Assembly (NCBI GenBank): GCA_043759115.1
Contig: JAYVME010000327.1
Coordinates: 1-42,234 of the forward strand
Direction: 5' to 3'
Source: Betaproteobacteria bacterium
GTDB lineage: Bacteria > Pseudomonadota > Gammaproteobacteria > Burkholderiales > SG8-41
DNA: 42,234 bases
In this document: piece by piece, positions 1,824 to 15,309 of the stretch
How positions within the stretch are numbered: the stretch's first letter is position 1
Layout of the letters: every line of letters starts with the position of its first letter
Made by a program: the position numbers and the translations under genes
The notes under the pieces: generated by a model
The model's database searches: none
What the model was told of the DNA's origin: nothing
What the model saw: the letters and a program-made list of their open reading frames with translations, nothing else

Positions 1824-4574
1824 TTAGTGTGCTTTTTCCCAGTTCGGCCCGATACCGACATCCACCACCAGCGGCACTGCAAGTTTTGCCACCCCGCCCA
1901 TGAGTGCCGGCAGGCGCTCTTTGACAATGTCGATTTCAGCGTCCGGCACTTCGAGCACGAGTTCGTCGTGCACCTGCATGATGAGCATCGATTTAAGTTT
2001 GTCGGTCTCAAGCCAGTGCTGCACTGCAATCATCGCCAGCTTGATCAGATCGGCGGCGGTACCCTGCATCGGCGCGTTGATCGCGGCGCGCTCGGCAGCC
2101 TGCCGCCGCGCGCCGTTGCTCGAGCGGATTTCAGGCAGCCACAAACGGCGGCCAAACACCGTTTCGACATAACCCTGCTCGCGCGCCTTTTCGCGCGTCA
2201 CCCGCATGTACTCGGCGACACCCGGATAGCGCGCGAAGTAGCGGTCCATGTACTGCTGGGCGGCGGCGCGTTCGATGCCGAGTTGGCTGGCCAGTCCGTA
2301 GACCGACATGCCGTAAATCAAACCGAAGTTGATGACCTTGGCGTAGCGCCGCTGTTCAACATCGACGGCGTGCAGGTCGAGACCTAAAATTTCAGCCGCG
2401 GTCGCGCGATGGATATCCTCGCCGGCGGCGAATGCCTTTAAGAGGCCGGCGTCCCGCGAGATGTGCGCCATGATGCGCAACTCGATCTGCGAATAATCGG
2501 CCGAGATAATCTGGCTGCCGGCGGGCGCGATGAAGGCTTCGCGAATGCGGCGGCCTTCGGCGGTGCGCACCGGGATGTTCTGCAGGTTGGGATCGTTGCT
2601 CGCGAGCCGCCCCGTGATCGCGACCGCTTGCGCGTAATTGGTGTGCACGCGGCCGGTACGCGGGTTGACCATGCGCGGCAGCTTGTCCGTATACGTCGAC
2701 TTGAGTTTGGCGATGCCCCGGTATTCGAGCAGGAGCTTGGGCAGCGGATGGTCGAGCGCAAGTTGCTCGAGCGCGTCCTCATCCGTCGACGGCGCGCCGG
2801 TCGGGGTTTTCTTGACCGGCTTGATGCCCAGCTTACCGAACAATATCTCCTGAATCTGCTTGGGTGAATTCAGATTGAATGGCTGGTCCGCCAGTTTGTG
2901 CGCAGCTGCCTCCAGGCCCATCATCTTGACGCCGAGTTCGCGGCTCTGCGCGTCAAGCAACCGGGCGTCGAGCAAAACGCCATGGCGTTCCATGATCTGC
3001 AGCACGGTCATCACCGGCATCTCGATCTCGCGGTAGATCCGCGCGAGCTTCGCATCCGCTTCAATCTGCGGATACAACGCGTGATGCAGTTGCAGCGTGA
3101 TGTCGGCGTCTTCCGCCGCGTATTCCGCGGCGCTTTCGACCGACACCTGATCGAAGCCGATCTGGCTCGCGCCCTTGCCCGCGACCTCCTCGAAGGTGAT
3201 GGTTTTCACGCCGAGATGGCGGGTGGCCAAGTCGTCCATGTTGTGCGATTTGTGGCTTTCGAGCACATACGACTGCAACAGTGTGTCGTGCAGCACGCCC
3301 GTCAGATGAATGCCGTGATTGGCGAACACGTGCGTGTCGTATTTGAGGTTCTGGCCGACCTTGTGGTGGCGCGCATCCTCGAGCCACGGTTTTAATTTGG
3401 CGAGCACCGCGTCGAGATCAAGCTGCGGCGGCGCGCCGGCATAGTTGTGTGTGAGCGGCACATAGGCCGCACGGCCCGGCTCCGCCGCCAGCGAAATTCC
3501 GACCAGCCGCGCCGCTAATGGATCGAGGCTGGTGGTTTCGGTATCCAGCGACACAAGCGCCGCGGCGGAAATTGTCGCCAGCCACGCGTCGAGCTGGCGC
3601 TCGGTGAGTATTGTCTCGTATACCCGTGAGGCGTTAGGCGTGAGGCGTGAGGCGGGTTCGGCGGGAACCGGGAGTCTTTCATCCTTCATCCTTCCGCCTT
3701 CATCCTTATTGTCGCTGCCCCTCTCCTCCAACTCCCGCCGCCACGTCTTGAACTCAAAGCGAGCATAGAGCTCCGCGAGCTTCGCTTCGTCGTGCTTGTC
3801 GTGCGCGAGCTCTTCGAGCTTGACCGGCAACTCGACGTCGCACTTGATCGTCACGAGCTCGCGCGCCTGCGGCAGCCAGTCGAGCGCTTTGCGCAGATTC
3901 TCGCCGACCACACCGCCGATTTCGCCGGCATGCGCGATGACGTTGTCGAGTGTGTGGTATTGCGCAAGCCATTTGACCGCGGTTTTGGGCCCGACTTTTT
4001 CCACACCCGGCACGTTATCGACCGCGTCGCCGACCAGCGCGAGATAATCAACAATGCGCTCCGGCTTAACGCCGAATTTCTTTTCGACCCCCGCCTCATC
4101 GAGTGTTTCGTTCGACATCGTATTGACGAGCGTGACCAGTGGATTGACGAGCTGCGTGATGTCCTTGTCGCCGGTCGAAATCACGGTGCGCAGGCCGCGC
4201 TGCTGCGCATGCCGCGCGAGCGTACCGATCACGTCGTCGGCTTCGACACCTTCCACCATAATTAAAGGCCAGCCCATGGCGCGGATCGCCGCATGCAGCG
4301 GCTCGATCTGCTGTACCAGGTCGTCAGGCATCGACGGCCGGTTGGCCTTGTATGCGGGATAGATTTCGTCGCGGAACGTTTTGCCTTTGGCGTCGAAAAC
4401 GCAGGCGCTATAATCAGACGGAATGTCCTTGTGCAGCCGCCGCAACATGTTGAGCACCCCGTAGATGGCGCCCGTCGGTTCGCCGCGGCTGTTACGCAGG
4501 TCCGTTTTCGACATCGCATGAAAAGCGCGATACAGGTACGATGAACCGTCTACCAGCAGCAGTGTTTTTGTCAT
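1824..4574 (-). CDS. polA: DNA polymerase I
   Basis: 916 aa with a 5'-3' exonuclease N-terminus (LLVDGSSYLYRAFHA), a 3'-5' exonuclease domain (DTETTSLD) and polymerase motifs (DYSQIELRIMAH, QVHDELV). The inter-domain linker is encoded by repeat DNA (see the repeat at 3626-3707). Confidence 0.97.
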   Translation of the reverse strand: MTKTLLLVDGSSYLYRAFHAMSKTDLRNSRGEPTGAIYGVLNMLRRLHKDIPSDYSACVFDAKGKTFRDEIYPAYKANRPSMPDDLVQQIEPLHAAIRAMGWPLIMVEGVEADDVIGTLARHAQQRGLRTVISTGDKDITQLVNPLVTLVNTMSNETLDEAGVEKKFGVKPERIVDYLALVGDAVDNVPGVEKVGPKTAVKWLAQYHTLDNVIAHAGEIGGVVGENLRKALDWLPQARELVTIKCDVELPVKLEELAHDKHDEAKLAELYARFEFKTWRRELEERGSDNKDEGGRMKDERLPVPAEPASRLTPNASRVYETILTERQLDAWLATISAAALVSLDTETTSLDPLAARLVGISLAAEPGRAAYVPLTHNYAGAPPQLDLDAVLAKLKPWLEDARHHKVGQNLKYDTHVFANHGIHLTGVLHDTLLQSYVLESHKSHNMDDLATRHLGVKTITFEEVAGKGASQIGFDQVSVESAAEYAAEDADITLQLHHALYPQIEADAKLARIYREIEMPVMTVLQIMERHGVLLDARLLDAQSRELGVKMMGLEAAAHKLADQPFNLNSPKQIQEILFGKLGIKPVKKTPTGAPSTDEDALEQLALDHPLPKLLLEYRGIAKLKSTYTDKLPRMVNPRTGRVHTNYAQAVAITGRLASNDPNLQNIPVRTAEGRRIREAFIAPAGSQIISADYSQIELRIMAHISRDAGLLKAFAAGEDIHRATAAEILGLDLHAVDVEQRRYAKVINFGLIYGMSVYGLASQLGIERAAAQQYMDRYFARYPGVAEYMRVTREKAREQGYVETVFGRRLWLPEIRSSNGARRQAAERAAINAPMQGTAADLIKLAMIAVQHWLETDKLKSMLIMQVHDELVLEVPDAEIDIVKERLPALMGGVAKLAVPLVVDVGIGPNWEKAH
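3626..3707. repeat. Two heptamer-periodic repeat arrays inside polA: a (CGCCTCA)n-type array and one GGATGAA-family arm
   Basis: 3626-3654 reads gtgaggcgttaggcgtgaggcgtgaggcg. 3678-3707 reads ttcatccttcatccttccgccttcatcctt, whose reverse complement is identical to 13561-13590. The region is translated in frame as ...NKDEGGRMKDERLPVPAEPASRLTPNASRV... Confidence 0.85.
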
Positions 4575-5340: not shown

Positions 5341-5395
5341 CAGGATTGAGGATTCGGTTGAACCCCGCCTTTCCTATATCCTCAATCTCGCATCC
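5341..5395. repeat. AGGATTG-heptamer hairpin element downstream of the LOG-family gene (possible terminator)
   Basis: caggattgaggattcgg ... tatatcctcaatctcgcatcc. The arms are complementary over about 10-11 bp. It belongs to the same family as 15236-15309. Confidence 0.6.
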
Positions 5396-7609: not shown

Positions 7610-9877
7610 TCACGCCGCGCTCAATTTCGCGTACTCGAGCGCCAGCCATTTCGTGCCATTGCGGTCGAAATTGACCTGCACGCGCGCATCGCCGCCGCGG
7701 CCTTCGGCATTAACGATTATGCCGGCGCCGAATTTCGGATGCGTAACATTCTGTCCGACGTGCCACGGCGAAGCCGGGTCCGGCGAGCCCGCCTCCCGCA
7801 CAACGGCCGGTTTGTCATAACGCGATGCCGCCGCATAAGCGCCGCGATTTCCGTGCGCCGGCGGCGCGTGCGTGGCATAGGCTCCCGCGCGATTGACGCG
7901 CTTGAGCAGCGCTTCCGGAATCTCGTGAAAAAAACTCGATGCGATGTTGTAGCGCGTCTGCCCGTGCAGCATGCGGCTTTGCGCGAACGACAGATACAGG
8001 CGCCGCCGCGCGCGCGTCAGCGCCACATACATCAGCCGCCGCTCCTCCTCCTTGCCGTCGGCCTCGGACAGGCTGTTCTCGTGCGGAAACAGCCCCTCTT
8101 CGAGTCCGCTGATAAACACGCTGTGGAATTCGAGGCCTTTCGCCGAATGCACGGTCATTAACTGCAACGCATCGGCGCCGGCCTGCGCCTGGTTATTGCC
8201 GGCTTCGAGCGCGGCATGGGCGAGGAACCCGGTGAGGCTCGTGTCATCCTGCGCTTCGTCCGCGATAAAACCCGCCGCGGCATTGATCAGCTCGCCGAGA
8301 TTTTCGAGCCGGTCCGCGCCCTCGCGCTCCTTTTCGTAGTGCTGCTTGAGTCCGCTGTGCACGATCACGTGTTCGATGATTTCGGGCAACGGCAGGCCGT
8401 CGCATGCCGCGCGCATGCTGGCTATTAGCGCCACAAAGCCCGCGATGCCTCGCAAGGATGAAGGCGGAGGGATGAAGGATGAATCCGAATCCGAATCCGA
8501 ATCCGCTTTGTCCTGCTTTCTTTCATCCTTCATCCTTCCGCCTTCCGCCTTCAAGCGCGCCGCCGTCCACAGGCTCGCAACGCGGCTGGTGGCGAGATCC
8601 TGCAGTTGTTCGACCGAGCGGTTGCCGATGCCGCGCGTGGGGAAATTTATGATGCGCAGCAGCGCGCCGTCGTCTTCATCACTCGCCAGCACGCGCAGGT
8701 AAGCGAGCGCGTGCTTGATCTCCTGGCGCTCGAAAAAGCGCAATCCGCCGTAGACGCGGTACGCGATGCCCGCATTGAAGAGGCCGTGCTCGATCACGCG
8801 TGATTGCGCATTCGAACGGTAGAGCAGCGCGATATCCGACAGCCGCAGGCCCTCGTGGTGCAGCGACTTTACCTCGTCGACGATAAAGGCGGCTTCATCG
8901 ATGTCGGTGCCCGCCTCAAAGACGCGCAGCGGCTCGCCCTTGCCTTCCGCGGTCCACAGATTCTTGCCCAGCCGCTTCTTGTTATGATCAATGAGCGCGT
9001 TGGCGGCGTCCAGTATATGGCCGTGCGAGCGATAGTTTTGCTCGAGCTTGATCACTTTTTCGACCGTGAAGTCTTTCTGCAAATCCTGCATGTTCGCGGC
9101 CGAAGCGCCTCTGAAAGCGTAGATCGACTGGTCGTCGTCGCCGACCGCGAATAGCGCATTGTCGCCGCCGGCCAGGAGCCGCAGCCACTGATACTGCAGG
9201 CGGTTGGTGTCCTGGAATTCGTCGACCAGGATATTGCGGAAGCGGCCGCGATAATGGTCGCGCAGAATTTCGTTCTTCGACAGCAATTCATAACAACGCA
9301 GCAGAAGTTCGGCGAAATCGACCACGCCTTCGCGCTGGCATTGCGCGTCGTAAATCGCGTAGAGTTCCTGCAAGCGGCGCGAGAAACCGTCATAGTCGTC
9401 GGCGTCGACCGCGCGTTTGCCGGCGTCTTTGTGGCTGTTGATGTACCACGCGATCTGGCGCGCGGGGAACTTCTCTTCGTCGACGTTGGCGGCCTTCATC
9501 ATCCGTTTGATGAGCGCCAACTGGTCCTGGCTGTCGAGAATCTGAAAGAGCTGCGGCAGCCCGGCCTCCTGAAAATGCGCGCGCAGCATGCGGTTGCACA
9601 GGCCGTGAAAAGTACCGACCCACATGCCGCGCGTATTGATCGGCAGCATCGCGCCGATGCGTGAGAGCATCTCCTTCGCGGCTTTGTTGGTAAAGGTGAC
9701 CGCGAGCAACCCCGCTGGGCTCGCCTGCCCGGTCTGGATCAGCCAGGCCACGCGCGTCGTCAGCACGCGAGTTTTTCCGCTGCCGGCCCCGGCGAGTATC
9801 AGCGCCGACTGGTGCGCAAGTGTGACGGCTTCGAGTTGCGGCTCGTTAAGACCGGATAGGAAGGAGGGCGACGGCAT
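7610..9877 (-). CDS. uvrD: DNA helicase II (UvrD), carrying an in-frame repeat-element insertion
   Basis: LILAGAGSGKTRVLTTR, VTFTNKAAKEM, VDEFQDTN and VHSAKGLEF helicase motifs, plus a UvrD-type C-terminus (GQNVTHPKFGAGIIVN). 755 aa. Confidence 0.95.
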   Translation of the reverse strand: MPSPSFLSGLNEPQLEAVTLAHQSALILAGAGSGKTRVLTTRVAWLIQTGQASPAGLLAVTFTNKAAKEMLSRIGAMLPINTRGMWVGTFHGLCNRMLRAHFQEAGLPQLFQILDSQDQLALIKRMMKAANVDEEKFPARQIAWYINSHKDAGKRAVDADDYDGFSRRLQELYAIYDAQCQREGVVDFAELLLRCYELLSKNEILRDHYRGRFRNILVDEFQDTNRLQYQWLRLLAGGDNALFAVGDDDQSIYAFRGASAANMQDLQKDFTVEKVIKLEQNYRSHGHILDAANALIDHNKKRLGKNLWTAEGKGEPLRVFEAGTDIDEAAFIVDEVKSLHHEGLRLSDIALLYRSNAQSRVIEHGLFNAGIAYRVYGGLRFFERQEIKHALAYLRVLASDEDDGALLRIINFPTRGIGNRSVEQLQDLATSRVASLWTAARLKAEGGRMKDERKQDKADSDSDSDSSFIPPPSSLRGIAGFVALIASMRAACDGLPLPEIIEHVIVHSGLKQHYEKEREGADRLENLGELINAAAGFIADEAQDDTSLTGFLAHAALEAGNNQAQAGADALQLMTVHSAKGLEFHSVFISGLEEGLFPHENSLSEADGKEEERRLMYVALTRARRRLYLSFAQSRMLHGQTRYNIASSFFHEIPEALLKRVNRAGAYATHAPPAHGNRGAYAAASRYDKPAVVREAGSPDPASPWHVGQNVTHPKFGAGIIVNAEGRGGDARVQVNFDRNGTKWLALEYAKLSAA
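8454..8552. repeat. Complete GGATGAA-family inverted-repeat element with a (TCCGAA)3.5 core, inside the uvrD reading frame
   Basis: Left arm aaggatgaaggcggagggatgaaggatgaa (8454-8483). Core tccgaatccgaatccgaatccg (8484-8505). Right arm tttcatccttcatccttccgccttccgccttc (8521-8552). Translated as AEGGRMKDERKQDKADSDSDSDSSFIPPPSSL. Confidence 0.9.
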
Positions 9878-13560: not shown

Positions 13561-13663
13561 AAGGATGAAGGCGGAAGGATGAAGGATGAATAACATAGAC
13601 AAGCCGAAATCTTTAGAGAAAATTGTTTTTTCATTCATCCTTCATCCCTCATCCTTCATCCTT
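13561..13663. repeat. GGATGAA-family inverted-repeat element at the leuS-lptE junction
   Basis: Left arm aaggatgaaggcggaaggatgaaggatgaa (13561-13590). Right arm ttcattcatccttcatccctcatccttcatcctt (13630-13663). It starts 9 nt after the leuS stop and overlaps the 5' end of the lptE ORF. Confidence 0.9.
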
Positions 13664-14125
13664 GTGGCGGCAGCCTTATTGCTCTCCTCCTGCGGCTTTC
13701 ATCTGCGCGGCCAGGCCGCGTTGCCGTACGAGTCGATGTACATCAGCGGTTCGCCGTCGTTCGCCACCCAAATTTCGCGCGCGGTGCGCGCCGGCAGCAC
13801 AACGCGCATTACGAACAATCCCAAGGACGCGGAGGTCACCCTGCAGATTCTGAGCGAGGCGCGCGAGCGCTCGATACTGTCGCTTTCGTCTAACGGACGC
13901 GTGCAGGAACTGCAAATTCGCTATCGTGTTTCATTCCGCGTCTTCGACAAGAATAGCCGCGAATACGTCGCGCCAAACGAAATTCTGCTCAAGCGCGACT
14001 TGCTCTACAGAGATACCGACGTGCTCGGCAAGGAGCAGGAAGAGGCGCTGCTCTACCGCGACATGCAGAACGACGCGGTGCAGCAGGTGGTGCGCCGCCT
14101 GCAGGTCGCTCGGATTGAACCCTGA
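13586..14125 (+). CDS. lptE: LPS-assembly lipoprotein LptE (start codon uncertain)
   Basis: Lipobox LLSSC followed by GFHLRG, in the conserved leuS-lptE-holA order. The ATG at 13586 and the first 26 codons lie inside the repeat element; the in-frame GTG at 13664 is an alternative start. Confidence 0.85.
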   Translation: MNNIDKPKSLEKIVFSFILHPSSFILVAAALLLSSCGFHLRGQAALPYESMYISGSPSFATQISRAVRAGSTTRITNNPKDAEVTLQILSEARERSILSLSSNGRVQELQIRYRVSFRVFDKNSREYVAPNEILLKRDLLYRDTDVLGKEQEEALLYRDMQNDAVQQVVRRLQVARIEP

Positions 14126-15235: not shown

Positions 15236-15309
15236 AGGATTGAGGATCGAGGAGTGAGGATCGAGTAAGGTTCTACTGAGCTCCATCCCGATCCTCGATC
15301 CTCAATCCT
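15236..15309. repeat. AGGATYG-heptamer inverted-repeat element between holA and proA
   Basis: aggattgaggatcgaggagtgaggatcgag (15236-15265) ... ccgatcctcgatcctcaatcct (15288-15309). The first 18 nt of the left arm are perfectly complementary to the last 18 nt of the right arm. Confidence 0.85.

What the first reader, a model, noticed from the sequence alone, without database searches (positions are those of the whole stretch)
8454..8552. A complete inverted-repeat element with a hexanucleotide microsatellite is translated in frame inside uvrD
The roughly 99-nt element has a left arm (aaggatgaaggcggagggatgaaggatgaa), a (tccgaa)3.5 core and a right arm (tttcatccttcatccttccgccttccgccttc). It lies within the open uvrD frame and encodes AEGGRMKDERKQDKADSDSDSDSSFIPPPSSL.
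- Its left arm matches the arm at 13561-13590 (leuS-lptE spacer) at 29 of 30 positions, so it is a dispersed genomic repeat rather than native helicase sequence. That spacer arm is in turn identical to the reverse complement of 3678-3707 in polA.
- The protein is about 35 aa longer than the roughly 720 aa I recall for E. coli UvrD. That fits an insertion of about 33 codons in a surface region, roughly the 2B domain by position.
- Its length is a multiple of 3, and the 6-nt microsatellite can expand or contract without frameshifting.
- In mRNA the arms could form a hairpin of about 28 bp inside the coding region.
Basis: partly seen in the sequence, partly recalled or inferred. Interest (0 to 1): 0.62.

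Follow-up and report, generated by a model that had tools for sequence, protein, structure and literature searches.

The report
Heptamer hairpin element translated within uvrD
A 99-base hairpin-forming repeat built from 7-base units sits in frame in a surface loop of the DNA-repair helicase UvrD; it is one of several hundred such arrays in this genome, looks like a gene-less relative of the small cassettes known from ribosomal RNA genes, has persisted there across species, and differs in length between strains.

Summary
Window 8454-8552 is an inverted repeat (arms 27/30 complementary) with a (GAATCC)4 core, read in frame in an intact 755-aa uvrD.

- **What the arms are.** They are tandem 7-mers (GGATGAA/GGCGGAA). 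The draft genome holds 333 period-7 arrays against 19 or fewer for other periods. There are 62-75 inverted pairs, all with the purine/TGA arm 5', and they lie mostly between co-directional genes.
- **Gene-carrying form.** The same arm (29/30) brackets a TIGR02436/PF05635 "23S rRNA intervening-sequence" four-helix-bundle gene on contig C243. All 10 such genes examined in relatives are bracketed by inverted heptamer arrays. Arrays and this gene co-occur across 301 genomes of the order (odds ratio 13.7).
- **Best reading.** The uvrD block is a gene-less copy of an IVS-like heptamer-armed cassette.
- **Position in UvrD.** It lies between two helices of the 2B domain, about 25 aa beyond the 26-aa basal loop, and is predicted to be partly disordered.
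- **Age and variation.** It is old. The same element, with a homologous loop, is present in three other lineages, including a sister lineage outside the genus. Its arms are better conserved than the flanking helicase codons. A 99.5%-identical strain has two hexamer units instead of four.
- **Other genes.** polA, uvrA, lnt, murF and others also carry in-frame arrays.

How the family spreads remains unknown.

The parts
7610..9877 (-). uvrD (DNA helicase II), intact 755-aa ORF that hosts the element
   Evidence: ORF and translation. Pfam UvrD-helicase, UvrD_C and the PcrA_UvrD tudor domain are all present. It matches E. coli UvrD 2IS1 at E = 4e-193. The AF2 model matches UvrD/PcrA structures.
8454..8552 (-). 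Complete heptamer-armed hairpin element, read in frame (UvrD residues about 443-475)
   Evidence: It is absent from outgroup UvrDs, which have a 26-aa basal loop against 51 aa here.
8522..8551 (-). 5' (purine, 'R') arm on the mRNA: AAGGCGG AAGGCGG AAGGATG AAGGATG AA. It encodes KAEGGRMKDE, in the only frame of this arm without TGA.
   Evidence: plus frame analysis of the sequence. The in-frame copies in polA, lnt and C473 use the same ..GGRM.. frame. The arm is 30/30 identical in a species whose uvrD is 85% identical overall.
8506..8521 (-). Non-repetitive part of the loop (AAGAAAGCAGGACAAAGC on the mRNA). It encodes RKQDKA.
   Evidence: It is homologous to, but diverged from, the loops of the same element in L102, L103 and L100 (45-58% identity).
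8481..8505 (-). Hexanucleotide microsatellite, (GGATTC)4 on the mRNA. It encodes DSDSDSDS and is length-polymorphic.
   Evidence: There are 2 units in the 99.5%-identical strain L101/P0002 and 1 unit in other species.
8454..8483 (-). 3' (pyrimidine, 'Y') arm on the mRNA: TTCATCC TTCATCC CTCCGCC TTCATCC TT. It encodes SSFIPPPSSL and is open in all three frames.
   Evidence: It is 29/30 identical to the arm of the TIGR02436 cassette on C243 and to 13561-13590. In strain L101 the match is 31/31.
13561..13663 (.). Sister copy of the same GGATGAA family in the leuS-lptE spacer. It runs into the lptE start region.
   Evidence: The orthologous spacer in G006 has the same R arm 30/30 with a different loop. 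In G004 both arms carry the same AGGGATG variant. G009 has no element.
3625..3707 (-). In-frame chimeric copy in the polA inter-domain linker. On the mRNA it has a GGATGAA-type R arm and a CCTCACG-type Y arm, encoding KDEGGRMKDE...ASRLTPNASR.
   Evidence: It lies between the Pfam 5'-3' exonuclease and 3'-5' exonuclease domains. It is shared with G016, is of another type in G015, and is absent in G006, G004 and G003.
15236..15309 (.). Copy of another heptamer family (AGGATYG) in the holA-proA spacer. This is a clean presence/absence case.
   Evidence: G006 and G009 have 34-60-nt spacers without it, and G004 has yet another type at the same place.

Best explanation
**What it is.** The block is a gene-less copy of a heptamer-armed hairpin cassette.
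- Such elements consist of two inverted arrays of about 4 tandem 7-nt units of the form G-N-N-T-G-A-R (here GGATGAA/GGCGGAA).
- The purine, TGA-bearing array always lies 5' and its complement 3'. A loop lies between them.
- In full-length members the loop holds a small TIGR02436/PF05635 four-helix-bundle gene, the '23S rRNA intervening-sequence protein'. Its start codon lies in the last unit of the 5' arm.
- In the many short members the loop is 8-110 nt.

**How it is tolerated in uvrD.**
- A copy lodged long ago in the loop between two helices of the 2B domain.
- It is read in the single TGA-free frame of the purine arm (..GGRMKDE..).
- The pyrimidine arm has no stops in any frame, and the total length is a multiple of 3.
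- It therefore only adds a helix extension plus a disordered acidic, Ser/Pro-rich loop, and the helicase stays intact. (Frame and position are shown; the fold is predicted.)

**History.**
- It has been inherited, and probably exchanged by homologous recombination, among related species.
- Its arms are held nearly constant while the loop drifts. (Shown.)
- The (GGATTC)n tract grew by replication slippage from a single subterminal GGATTC and still varies between strains. (Shown.)

**RNA level (inferred).** By analogy with IVS stems, the roughly 27-bp mRNA stem is a plausible RNase III substrate and a barrier to ribosomes. The element is therefore more likely a tolerated passenger with a small cost than an adaptive part of UvrD.

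**Open point.** How the family copies itself and keeps its arms uniform is not shown. Candidates are ectopic gene conversion plus slippage, or an activity of the four-helix-bundle protein.
For: **1. Element and frame.**

**2. Family census.**
- 333 period-7 arrays; 75 R-then-Y pairs and 0 Y-then-R.
- A pattern-based method gives 62 convergent and 0 divergent pairs, with a modal 4 units.
- 82% of arrays are intergenic or at gene edges, against 20% for random positions.
- 65 of 71 pairs lie between co-directional genes.

**3. Gene-carrying members.**
- C243:2412-2854 has the master GGATGAA arm, then a 120-aa TIGR02436 gene starting MKDER inside the arm, then a (TTCATCC)n arm.
- The C50 cassette and its G016 orthologue show the same build.
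- All 10 PF05635 loci examined in relatives are bracketed by inverted heptamer arrays.
- Arrays and PF05635 co-occur in 301 genomes of the order: 58/20/39/184, odds ratio 13.7, p = 1.6e-19.
- The uvrD insert reads ATG AAG GAT GAA AGA, against ATG AAG GAT GAA AGG at the cassette gene start.
- The subterminal (G)GGTT motif before the Y arm is shared by the cassette, many short copies and the ancestral uvrD loop.

**4. Insertion, not native sequence.** Outgroups have a 26-aa loop. E. coli aligns with a gap.

**5. Age and constraint.**
- The same element with a homologous loop occurs in L102, L103 and L100.
- The R arm is 30/30 and the Y arm 27/30 identical, against 83-84% in the flanking 300 nt.

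**6. Structure.** Helix 436-458, pLDDT below 50 for residues 458-474, helix 477-492.

**7. Slippage.** 4 against 2 hexamer units.

**8. Recurrence in other genes.** In-frame arrays occur in polA, UvrA, Lnt, MurF, a GlcF-like protein and an FAD/FeS oxidase, with Pfam domains on both sides.

**9. Published parallel.** The Coxiella IVS has a 28-bp stem cut by RNase III and tandem heptamers before the S23p start whose copy number varies (PMC4990558).
Against: - No transcript, protein or RNase III data exist for this organism. No RNA runs were found.
- The link between short copies and gene-carrying cassettes rests on shared arms, a short subterminal motif and co-occurrence statistics. Those statistics are not corrected for phylogeny or MAG incompleteness.
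- Loops of short copies are otherwise unrelated to one another. Arms could therefore be homogenised independently of any cassette.
- 39 genomes have arrays but no detected PF05635 gene, and 20 have the gene but no GNNTGAR arrays.
- The patchy distribution of heptamer types at the uvrD site cannot be resolved. Sister taxa differ. Turnover in place, recombination and repeated insertion all remain possible.
- The AF2 model has modest global confidence (pTM 0.49).
Confidence: 0.64

Rival explanations
1. It is a plain heptanucleotide simple-sequence repeat palindrome with no relation to TIGR02436 cassettes. On this view the arrays arise and spread by slippage, fold-back template switching and ectopic gene conversion. 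The cassette genes merely sit in the same kind of intergenic hairpins.
For: - Loops of short copies are not conserved.
- Arms of one element can be of two different heptamer types (polA, C120, C383).
- The same sites hold different types in different species, with both arms changed together.
- 39 genomes have arrays without a PF05635 gene.
- Xanthomonas GGGAATC arrays with 70-75 convergent pairs were described without any such gene (PMC4692102).
Against: - All 10 PF05635 genes examined, and both in this genome, are bracketed by inverted heptamer arrays, with the start codon inside the arm.
- The odds ratio for co-occurrence is 13.7.
- The unit order of the 30-nt arm (ATG-CGG-ATG-ATG) is identical at many loci and across species that are 80% identical. 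Independent slippage would not produce that.
- Slippage does not explain the strict polarity (62-75 to 0).
Confidence: 0.2
2. It is a classical transposase-mobilised element (MITE, or REP/REPIN moved by a RAYT) that recently jumped into uvrD.
For: - It is palindromic, short, high in copy number and mostly extragenic.
- There are clean presence/absence differences at orthologous spacers (holA-proA).
- Two Y1_Tnp (PF01797) genes exist in the genome.
Against: - Neither Y1_Tnp gene is flanked by heptamer arrays.
- Y1_Tnp presence does not track array load. G006 and G014 have arrays but no gene, while G002 has 5 genes and 4 arrays.
- There is no GTAG/CGTC head, no conserved internal sequence and no recognisable target-site duplication.
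- The uvrD copy is shared, with a homologous loop, by species down to 75% nucleotide identity. It is therefore not recent.
Confidence: 0.05
3. The block is now a functional part of uvrD expression or of the protein. Three versions are possible.
- It is a selected 2B-domain loop that tunes dimerisation or autoinhibition.
- It is an mRNA hairpin that sets the UvrD level.
- It is a frameshift-prone switch, because a change of one 7-nt unit breaks the frame.
For: - The arms are more conserved than the flanking codons.
- The 2B domain is the regulatory and dimerisation domain of UvrD-family helicases (PMC11912403, PMC8872793).
- The frame has been kept in every lineage.
- Three excision-repair genes (uvrA, uvrD, polA) are among about 8 genes with in-frame arrays.
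Against: - The peptide differs completely between congeners (other heptamer types, remnants or nothing).
- The arm is conserved at the DNA level at intergenic copies too. This points to an element-level constraint, not a UvrD-level one.
- The segment is predicted to be disordered.
- The arrays are imperfect (2+2 units), so slippage rates should be low.
Confidence: 0.1
4. It is an assembly or binning artefact, in which a repeat arm caused a chimeric join inside uvrD.
For: - The genome is a fragmented MAG (593 contigs).
- The arms attract up to 5000x summed contig depth in the metagenomes.
Against: - Independent assemblies from other samples give the same sequence.
- The ORF is continuous, with conserved UvrD sequence on both sides.
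- Related species carry the same element at the same codon position.
Confidence: 0.01

Closest known systems
23S rRNA intervening sequences (IVS) carrying an S23p/PF05635 ORF (Coxiella burnetii, Leptospira, Salmonella and others; PMC4990558)
   Same: - Terminal inverted repeats form a stem of about 28 bp.
- Tandem heptamers in the 5' arm lie directly before the start of a four-helix-bundle ORF, and the heptamer copy number varies between strains.
- This genome has the same build around two TIGR02436/PF05635 genes. One of them has the very arm found in uvrD.
   Different: - The uvrD copy has no ORF of its own.
- It lies in a protein-coding gene rather than in 23S rRNA, and it is translated.
- RNase III cleavage has not been tested.
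- There are hundreds of short copies per genome rather than one per rRNA operon.
G-rich heptameric repeats of Xanthomonas (GGGAATC) and Nostoc (GGGGAYT) (Rehm et al. 2015, PMC4692102)
   Same: - Dispersed tandem 7-mers with a preferred number of about four units.
- 70-75 pairs per genome in convergent orientation.
- Enriched between co-directional ORFs and under-represented in coding regions.
   Different: - The units here (GGATGAA, GGCGTGA and others) have no GGG tracts, so the G-quadruplex reading does not apply.
- That paper reports no in-frame copies in conserved housekeeping genes.
- It reports no link to a four-helix-bundle gene.
Rickettsia palindromic elements (RPE; Ogata et al. 2000, as summarised in PMC10969869)
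   Same: A palindromic repeat family is inserted in frame in unrelated housekeeping genes. It adds a peptide segment that the protein fold tolerates.
   Different: - RPEs are 100-150-bp elements conserved along their whole length, and their arms are not tandem repeats.
- Here only the arms and a short subterminal motif are conserved.
- The host is a free-living betaproteobacterium.
TAACTGA heptamer direct repeats of Beggiatoaceae and cyanobacteria (MacGregor 2015, PMC4679880)
   Same: - A TGA-bearing heptamer gives stops in all three frames in forward orientation and is open in reverse.
- Forward arrays lie at gene ends or just before start codons.
- Reverse arrays are occasionally found inside ORFs.
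   Different: - Those are almost always direct repeats (one inverted case in 170).
- Their ORF copies lie mostly in hypothetical proteins or at protein termini.
REP/BIME and REPIN elements with RAYT transposases (PMC3333891, PMC8266576)
   Same: Short, abundant, hairpin-forming, mostly extragenic elements inside operons.
   Different: - There is no GTAG/CGTC head.
- The arms are tandem repeats.
- There is no association with the Y1_Tnp genes of this genome.

Membership tests
Heptamer-armed hairpin elements / bacterial heptanucleotide repeat pairs (Xanthomonas type) | Tandem 7-nt units, dispersed and over-represented relative to other periods | tested here: met
   173 arrays at the strict threshold (333 at the looser one) for period 7, against 0-19 at the strict threshold for periods 5, 6 and 8-11. 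The GNNTGAR pattern gives 252 arrays against 11 in the control.
Heptamer-armed hairpin elements / bacterial heptanucleotide repeat pairs (Xanthomonas type) | Pairs in convergent orientation; mainly non-coding; between co-directional ORFs | tested here: met
   75 to 0 and 62 to 0. 82% are outside or at the edge of genes. 65 of 71 lie between co-directional genes.
Heptamer-armed hairpin elements / bacterial heptanucleotide repeat pairs (Xanthomonas type) | G-tracts of at least 3 G per unit, able to form G-quadruplexes | tested here: not met
   The units GGATGAA and GGCGGAA have only GG, as the sequence shows.
IVS-type cassette (heptamer arms + PF05635/TIGR02436 gene) | Inverted terminal arms that form a long stem | tested here: met
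   Arms are 27/30 complementary. The fold is -67.6 kcal/mol with z = -6.6.
IVS-type cassette (heptamer arms + PF05635/TIGR02436 gene) | Carries the four-helix-bundle ORF between the arms | tested here: not met
   The uvrD loop is 38 nt. Only the first five codons (MKDER) resemble the start of the cassette gene. The uvrD copy is therefore a gene-less relative, not a full member.
IVS-type cassette (heptamer arms + PF05635/TIGR02436 gene) | Same arm family as a gene-carrying cassette in the same genome | tested here: met
   The C243 cassette arm is 29/30 identical to the uvrD arm, and 30-31/31 in strain L101.
IVS-type cassette (heptamer arms + PF05635/TIGR02436 gene) | Located in 23S rRNA and excised by RNase III | tested here: not met
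   The location is a protein-coding gene. RNase III cleavage cannot be tested with these tools.
Rickettsia palindromic elements | In-frame insertion in conserved genes at tolerated, surface positions | tested here: met
   uvrD, polA, uvrA, lnt, murF and others. The segment is a predicted disordered loop in 2B.
Rickettsia palindromic elements | Full-length sequence conservation among copies (homology to RPE families) | tested here: not met
   Loops are unrelated among copies. The arms are tandem heptamers, unlike RPEs.
REP/REPIN-RAYT | RAYT gene flanked by the repeats; conserved GTAG/CGTC head | tested here: not met
   The Y1_Tnp genes on C303 and C103 have no arrays nearby. The arms have no such head.
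MITE | Terminal inverted repeats with target-site duplication and a parent IS | tested here: inconclusive
   No target-site duplication is recognisable at the filled and empty holA-proA sites. No parent IS was looked for beyond Y1_Tnp.
UvrD / helicase II (host gene) | SF1A helicase domains 1A/1B/2A/2B with the GIG motif and a C-terminal tudor domain | tested here: met
   Pfam hits. Alignment to E. coli UvrD over residues 6-675. Foldseek top hits are 2IS6, 2IS1 and 3LFU.

The most novel reading that the evidence does not exclude
The short heptamer-armed hairpins and the TIGR02436/PF05635 four-helix-bundle genes may form one cis/trans system. In this reading the protein recognises arrays of about four to five 7-nt units on RNA or single-stranded DNA. 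From memory, this protein family forms pentamers and includes the Avd accessory protein of diversity-generating retroelements. The protein would then drive copying, homogenisation or processing of the arms.

This would account for four observations:
- the strict purine-arm-first polarity;
- the modal unit number of four;
- arms that are better conserved than neighbouring codons;
- the spread into loops of housekeeping genes, including uvrD, uvrA and polA.

Earlier notes of this scan proposed the same idea, so it is not independent support.
Probability: 0.12. Interest if true: 0.85.

Novelty: new variant of a known kind. Interest (0 to 1): 0.58.

Why it matters
- **A new setting for a known phenomenon.** An intact, essential-pathway helicase carries a translated copy of a selfish-looking hairpin element. 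Published cases of this are mainly from Rickettsia. This case is in a free-living betaproteobacterium and involves a different kind of element.
- **It connects three bodies of literature that have been treated separately.** These are bacterial heptanucleotide repeats, in-frame palindromic elements, and 23S rRNA intervening sequences with their unexplained S23p/four-helix-bundle gene. One genome holds the same 30-nt arm in three places: around such a gene, in operon spacers, and in frame in uvrD, polA and lnt.
- **It offers concrete tests.**
  - Does RNase III cut such stems in mRNAs?
  - Does the four-helix-bundle protein bind heptamer arrays?
  - How does the 2B regulatory domain of UvrD tolerate a 25-residue floppy insert?
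- **Practical point.** These arrays break short-read assemblies and mislead start-codon calling, because pyrimidine arms extend ORFs upstream.

Tried and rejected
- **RAYT/Y1 transposase link.** PF01797 genes exist, but they are not flanked by arrays and do not track array load. Rejected.
- **Rfam.** No family reaches its gathering score anywhere in the window.
- **RNA evidence.** No RNA-seq run holds uvrD.
- **Read-level polymorphism.** Only Logan contigs were available. They confirm the sequence but do not resolve unit-number variants. The 'joints' reported at the arms come from other loci or organisms. The polymorphism was instead shown from an independent assembly.
- **Target-site duplication.** None is convincing at the filled and empty holA-proA sites, and the uvrD site is too diverged to judge.
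- **Recent transfer of the uvrD segment from the mgP0003 lineage.** The flanking 300 nt are no more similar than the gene average. Only about 15-20 nt just downstream of the element (LRG[IV]AG) are shared. This is left open as a short recombination tract or ancestral polymorphism.
- **Derivation of the uvrD loop from the cassette by internal deletion.** This is only suggestive. Twelve nt after the arm match 8/12, and there is a GGGTT-type subterminal motif. It is not claimed.
- **Deep-inside hits from my own gene caller.** Many of these hits lying at 3-12% of gene length are false 5' extensions through stop-free pyrimidine arms. They were excluded from the count of in-frame genes.
- **Telomerase-like 3'-end addition at a break, as an explanation of the polarity.** Considered but not testable here. 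It does not explain the unique loops.


Full report
**1. The observation**

Window 8454-8552 reads, on the plus strand: AAGGATGAAGGCGGAGGGATGAAGGATGAA, then TCCGAATCCGAATCCGAATCCG, then CTTTGTCCTGCTTTCT, then TTCATCCTTCATCCTTCCGCCTTCCGCCTT, then C.
- The repeat finder reports the two 30-nt arms as 90% complementary and 38 nt apart (I10).
- uvrD is the minus-strand ORF 7610-9877 (755 aa). It has full-length UvrD-helicase, UvrD_C and tudor Pfam domains.
- The block is read through as ...LKAEGGRMKDERKQDKADSDSDSDSSFIPPPSSLRG... (residues 442-477).
- The arm matches 13561-13590 at 29-30/31. That arm is 31/31 complementary to 3678-3708 in polA.
- The 127-nt mRNA segment folds into one long bulged stem (-67.6 kcal/mol, z = -6.6, 0 of 200 shuffles as stable).
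- Two further metagenome assemblies carry the same sequence at 100% and 99.96% over 13-20 kb. Contigs from three runs span it unchanged. It is therefore not an assembly artefact.

**2. What the arms are**

Each arm is a run of four 7-nt units: AAGGATG/AAGGCGG, or TTCATCC/TTCCGCC on the other strand.

Census of the whole draft genome (593 contigs, 4.0 Mb, 61% G+C):
- The 30-nt arm has 116 matches with at most 6 mismatches.
- There are 173 period-7 arrays, against 3, 19, 4, 8, 2 and 0 for periods 5, 6, 8, 9, 10 and 11.
- The units fall into families that share the skeleton G-N-N-T-G-A-R: GGCGTGA 48, GGATGAA 38, GGGTGAA 11, GGACTGA 11, and others.
- At a looser threshold there are 333 arrays and 75 adjacent pairs. 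All 75 have the purine/TGA arm first, and none is in the opposite order.
- An independent pattern-based count gives 252 arrays (11 for the reversed-pattern control), 62 convergent pairs, 0 divergent pairs, a modal 4 units and a median loop of 38 nt.

Position relative to genes:
- 82% of arrays lie outside genes or at their edges, against 20% of random positions.
- 65 of 71 pairs lie between co-directional genes.

Reading frames:
- A pure (GGATGAA)n array has TGA in all three frames, and its complement has no stop in any frame.
- The common arm variant AAGGATG-AAGGCGG-AAGGATG-AAGGATG is open in exactly one frame (K-D-E-G-G-R-M-K-D-E).
- All four complete in-frame copies use that frame: uvrD, polA, lnt and the C473 oxidase.

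**3. Where it sits in UvrD**

- phmmer against the PDB aligns residues 6-675 with E. coli UvrD 6-656. There is a gap exactly at 443-477.
- The GIG motif (E. coli residues 414-422, in the 2B domain; PMC5973834) is at residues 415-418 here, so the insert is in 2B.
- Between the anchors S-L-W and F-V-x-L-I, outgroup betaproteobacterial UvrDs have 26 residues, E. coli has 30, and this protein has 51.
- An AlphaFold2 model built on 39 sequences gives helix 436-458, a segment 458-474 with pLDDT below 50, then helix 477-492. The neighbouring blocks have pLDDT 84-89.
- The model's best structural matches are UvrD and PcrA.
- The purine arm therefore extends a helix. The microsatellite and the pyrimidine arm form a floppy D/S/P-rich loop.

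**4. History of the uvrD copy**

Strain-level variation:
- A search restricted to residues 425-495 found four relatives.
- P0002 is 99% identical in protein and 99.2-99.5% in DNA. It has the same element with (GGATTC)2 instead of (GGATTC)4, which is -12 nt or -4 aa. Its arm is 31/31 identical to the leuS-lptE arm.

Other lineages:
- mgP0003 (85% nt), mgP0004 (80%) and the sister-lineage MAG RIFCSPLOWO2_02_64_14 (75%) have the same GGATGAA-type element at the same codon position. Their loops are recognisably homologous.
- Against mgP0003 the R arm is 30/30 and the Y arm 27/30 identical. The flanking 300 nt are 83-84% identical and the loop 45%.
- The hexamer tract is a young expansion of a single subterminal GGATTC.

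Other congeners at the same site:
- G015 and G016 hold elements with other heptamers (GGCGAGA/CCTCACC).
- G003 holds GGCGGGA/CCTCACG.
- G004 holds AAGTGCA/TCACTCA.
- G011 holds a short remnant.
- G006, G009, G018 and G005 have non-repetitive 32-33-aa loops.
- A genome from another family of the order (G044) has two (CTCATCC)n arrays there.

On a UvrD tree with the loop masked, the types are patchy. G006 (no element) is sister to mgP0003 (GGATGAA). mgP0004 (GGATGAA) is sister to mgP0005 (another type). I conclude that this loop has hosted such elements since before the genus diversified. Unit turnover, partial deletion and probably short recombination tracts followed. I cannot separate these processes.

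**5. The same dynamics at other loci**

In 13-20 kb of conserved synteny:
- **leuS-lptE spacer.** G006 has an R arm identical to ours 30/30 but an unrelated loop. G004 has the variant unit AGGGATG in both arms, in matching order. G015 has another type. G009 has nothing.
- **holA-proA spacer.** The site is filled here and empty in G006 and G009.
- **polA linker.** The element is shared with G016, is of another type in G015, and is absent in three others, although the linker length is similar.

Arms therefore co-evolve within an element. They are also kept uniform between loci and even between species that are about 80% identical.

**6. In-frame copies in other conserved genes**

Pfam domains lie on both sides of arrays in the following genes:
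- polA, between the 5'-3' exonuclease and 3'-5' exonuclease domains.
- A long UvrA ORF on C99, with four pyrimidine arrays, plus one more array in a UvrA fragment on C151. That fragment gave no Pfam hit at the 1e-05 cut-off and is identified as UvrA only from its sequence motifs.
- lnt, between LNT_N and CN_hydrolase.
- murF, inside Mur_ligase_M.
- A GlcF-like CCG protein.
- An FAD/FeS oxidase.
- The C-terminus of a nitrate-reductase-like protein.

Many further 'inside' hits at 3-12% of gene length are ORF over-extensions through stop-free pyrimidine arms. Alternatively, they are real N-terminal signal-peptide segments. I did not count them.

**7. The link to IVS-type cassettes**

Earlier notes of this scan claimed that heptamer arms bracket '23S rRNA intervening-sequence protein' genes. 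I tested this here.
- The genome has two PF05635 hits.
- **C243.** The master GGATGAA arm (2412-2441) and a (TTCATCC)n arm (2811-2854) enclose 369 nt. That stretch encodes a 120-aa TIGR02436 four-helix-bundle protein (84.6 bits). Its start, ATG AAG GAT GAA AGG (MKDER), lies in the last arm units. The uvrD insert reads ATG AAG GAT GAA AGA at the corresponding place.
- **C50.** A GCGTGAG array runs into the GTG start of a second such gene, and the contig ends where the other arm should begin. The G016 orthologue shows that arm.
- **Relatives.** All ten further PF05635 loci examined in relatives are bracketed by inverted heptamer arrays. Nine have the purine arm first, and G010 has the opposite order.
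- **Co-occurrence.** In 301 genomes sampled across the order, arrays and PF05635 co-occur (58/20/39/184; odds ratio 13.7, p = 1.6e-19). Within the genus, array load is higher in genomes with the gene (p = 0.02). These tests are not corrected for phylogeny or completeness.
- **Subterminal motif.** A motif (G)GGTT followed by a T-rich run precedes the pyrimidine arm in the cassette (CAGGGTTTTCG) and in many short copies. It also precedes that arm in the older form of the uvrD loop (mgP0004, CCGGGTTCCGA).
- **Published parallel.** In the Coxiella IVS, 28-bp terminal inverted repeats are cut by RNase III. Three tandem heptamers lie before the S23p start, and their number varies between strains (PMC4990558).

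**8. Comparison with the literature**

- Dispersed heptamers with about four units are described for Xanthomonas and Nostoc. So are 70-75 convergent pairs and a preference for spacers between aligned ORFs. Those repeats are G-quadruplex-forming GGGAATC units, with no coding copies and no gene emphasised (PMC4692102).
- TAACTGA repeats share the property of three-frame stops in forward orientation and open frames in reverse (PMC4679880).
- In-frame palindromic elements in housekeeping genes are the hallmark of Rickettsia RPEs (PMC10969869).
- REP/RAYT features are not met.
- No Rfam family matches.

**9. Verdict**

The most likely nature of the block is a gene-less, long-resident copy of an IVS-like heptamer-armed cassette. 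It is tolerated in a disordered loop of the 2B domain, and a slippage-prone hexamer tract is still varying.
- **Shown:** the sequence anatomy, family membership, in-frame status, age, arm conservation, hexamer polymorphism and the association with the cassette gene.
- **Inferred:** the RNA processing, the neutrality of the insert, and the way the family copies and homogenises itself.
- **Unexplained:** the strict arm polarity, and the presence of uvrA, uvrD and polA among the few genes hit.

Noticed in passing
genome contigs C99:1464-5843, C151:4887-5369; window 1824-4574 and 7610-9877: Three nucleotide-excision-repair genes are among only about 8 conserved genes with in-frame heptamer arrays. 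They are a long UvrA ORF with 4-5 arrays, uvrD and polA. By gene length this would be very unlikely (roughly 1e-5). The category was chosen after seeing the data, and long multi-domain proteins with linkers are favoured.
   Followed up: partly
window 13561-13700: The lptE start codon seems to lie in the last unit of the purine arm (GG ATG AAT AAC). G009, which lacks the element, starts lptE with the same ATG AAT AAA. The loop and pyrimidine arm would therefore be an in-frame insertion in the LptE signal peptide (…KIVFSFILHPSSFILVAAALLLSSC).
   Followed up: partly
genome-wide, e.g. C195:16487-18617, C146, C28, C40, C394, C441: Many GGATGAA-type elements sit between tandem paralogous genes of about 330-350 aa. 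The start codon lies in the loop, and the pyrimidine arm is read as FILHPSSFIL inside the predicted signal peptide. In the GGATGAA array each unit's AAGGA lies 6 nt before the next unit's ATG, which is a Shine-Dalgarno-like spacing.
   Followed up: no
L100 (MAG RIFCSPLOWO2_02_64_14), uvrD: This UvrD has an intein-like insertion of about 250 aa right after the VGDDDQ motif (C...HN|S). It also has a second heptamer palindrome (RIQERGSRIEDRG ... QSSILNPQS) in the C-terminal linker, in addition to the GGATGAA element in the 2B loop.
   Followed up: no
L139 (G010:C5:21263-21577 and flanks): One PF05635 cassette has arms of unit GCTGATC in the opposite order, with the TCA-bearing arm first. It is the only exception seen to the purine/TGA-arm-first rule.
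   Followed up: no
L127 (G044:C1, another family of the order): The same UvrD 2B loop carries two (CTCATCC)n arrays (…TIHPSSLIPHPSRDAHPSSLIPHPSKG…). Either the occupation of this loop predates the families or the site is a recurrent target.
   Followed up: partly
window 5341-5395 and 15236-15309: Further heptamer palindromes of other families (AGGATTG/AGGATCG) fill operon spacers. The orthologous spacers in relatives hold other types or none.
   Followed up: partly
genome-wide: The (GNNTGAR)x3 pattern is patchily distributed across the order: 97 of 301 genomes and 49 of 143 genera. Loads above 100 occur in several unrelated families. This genome has the highest count seen (252).
   Followed up: partly
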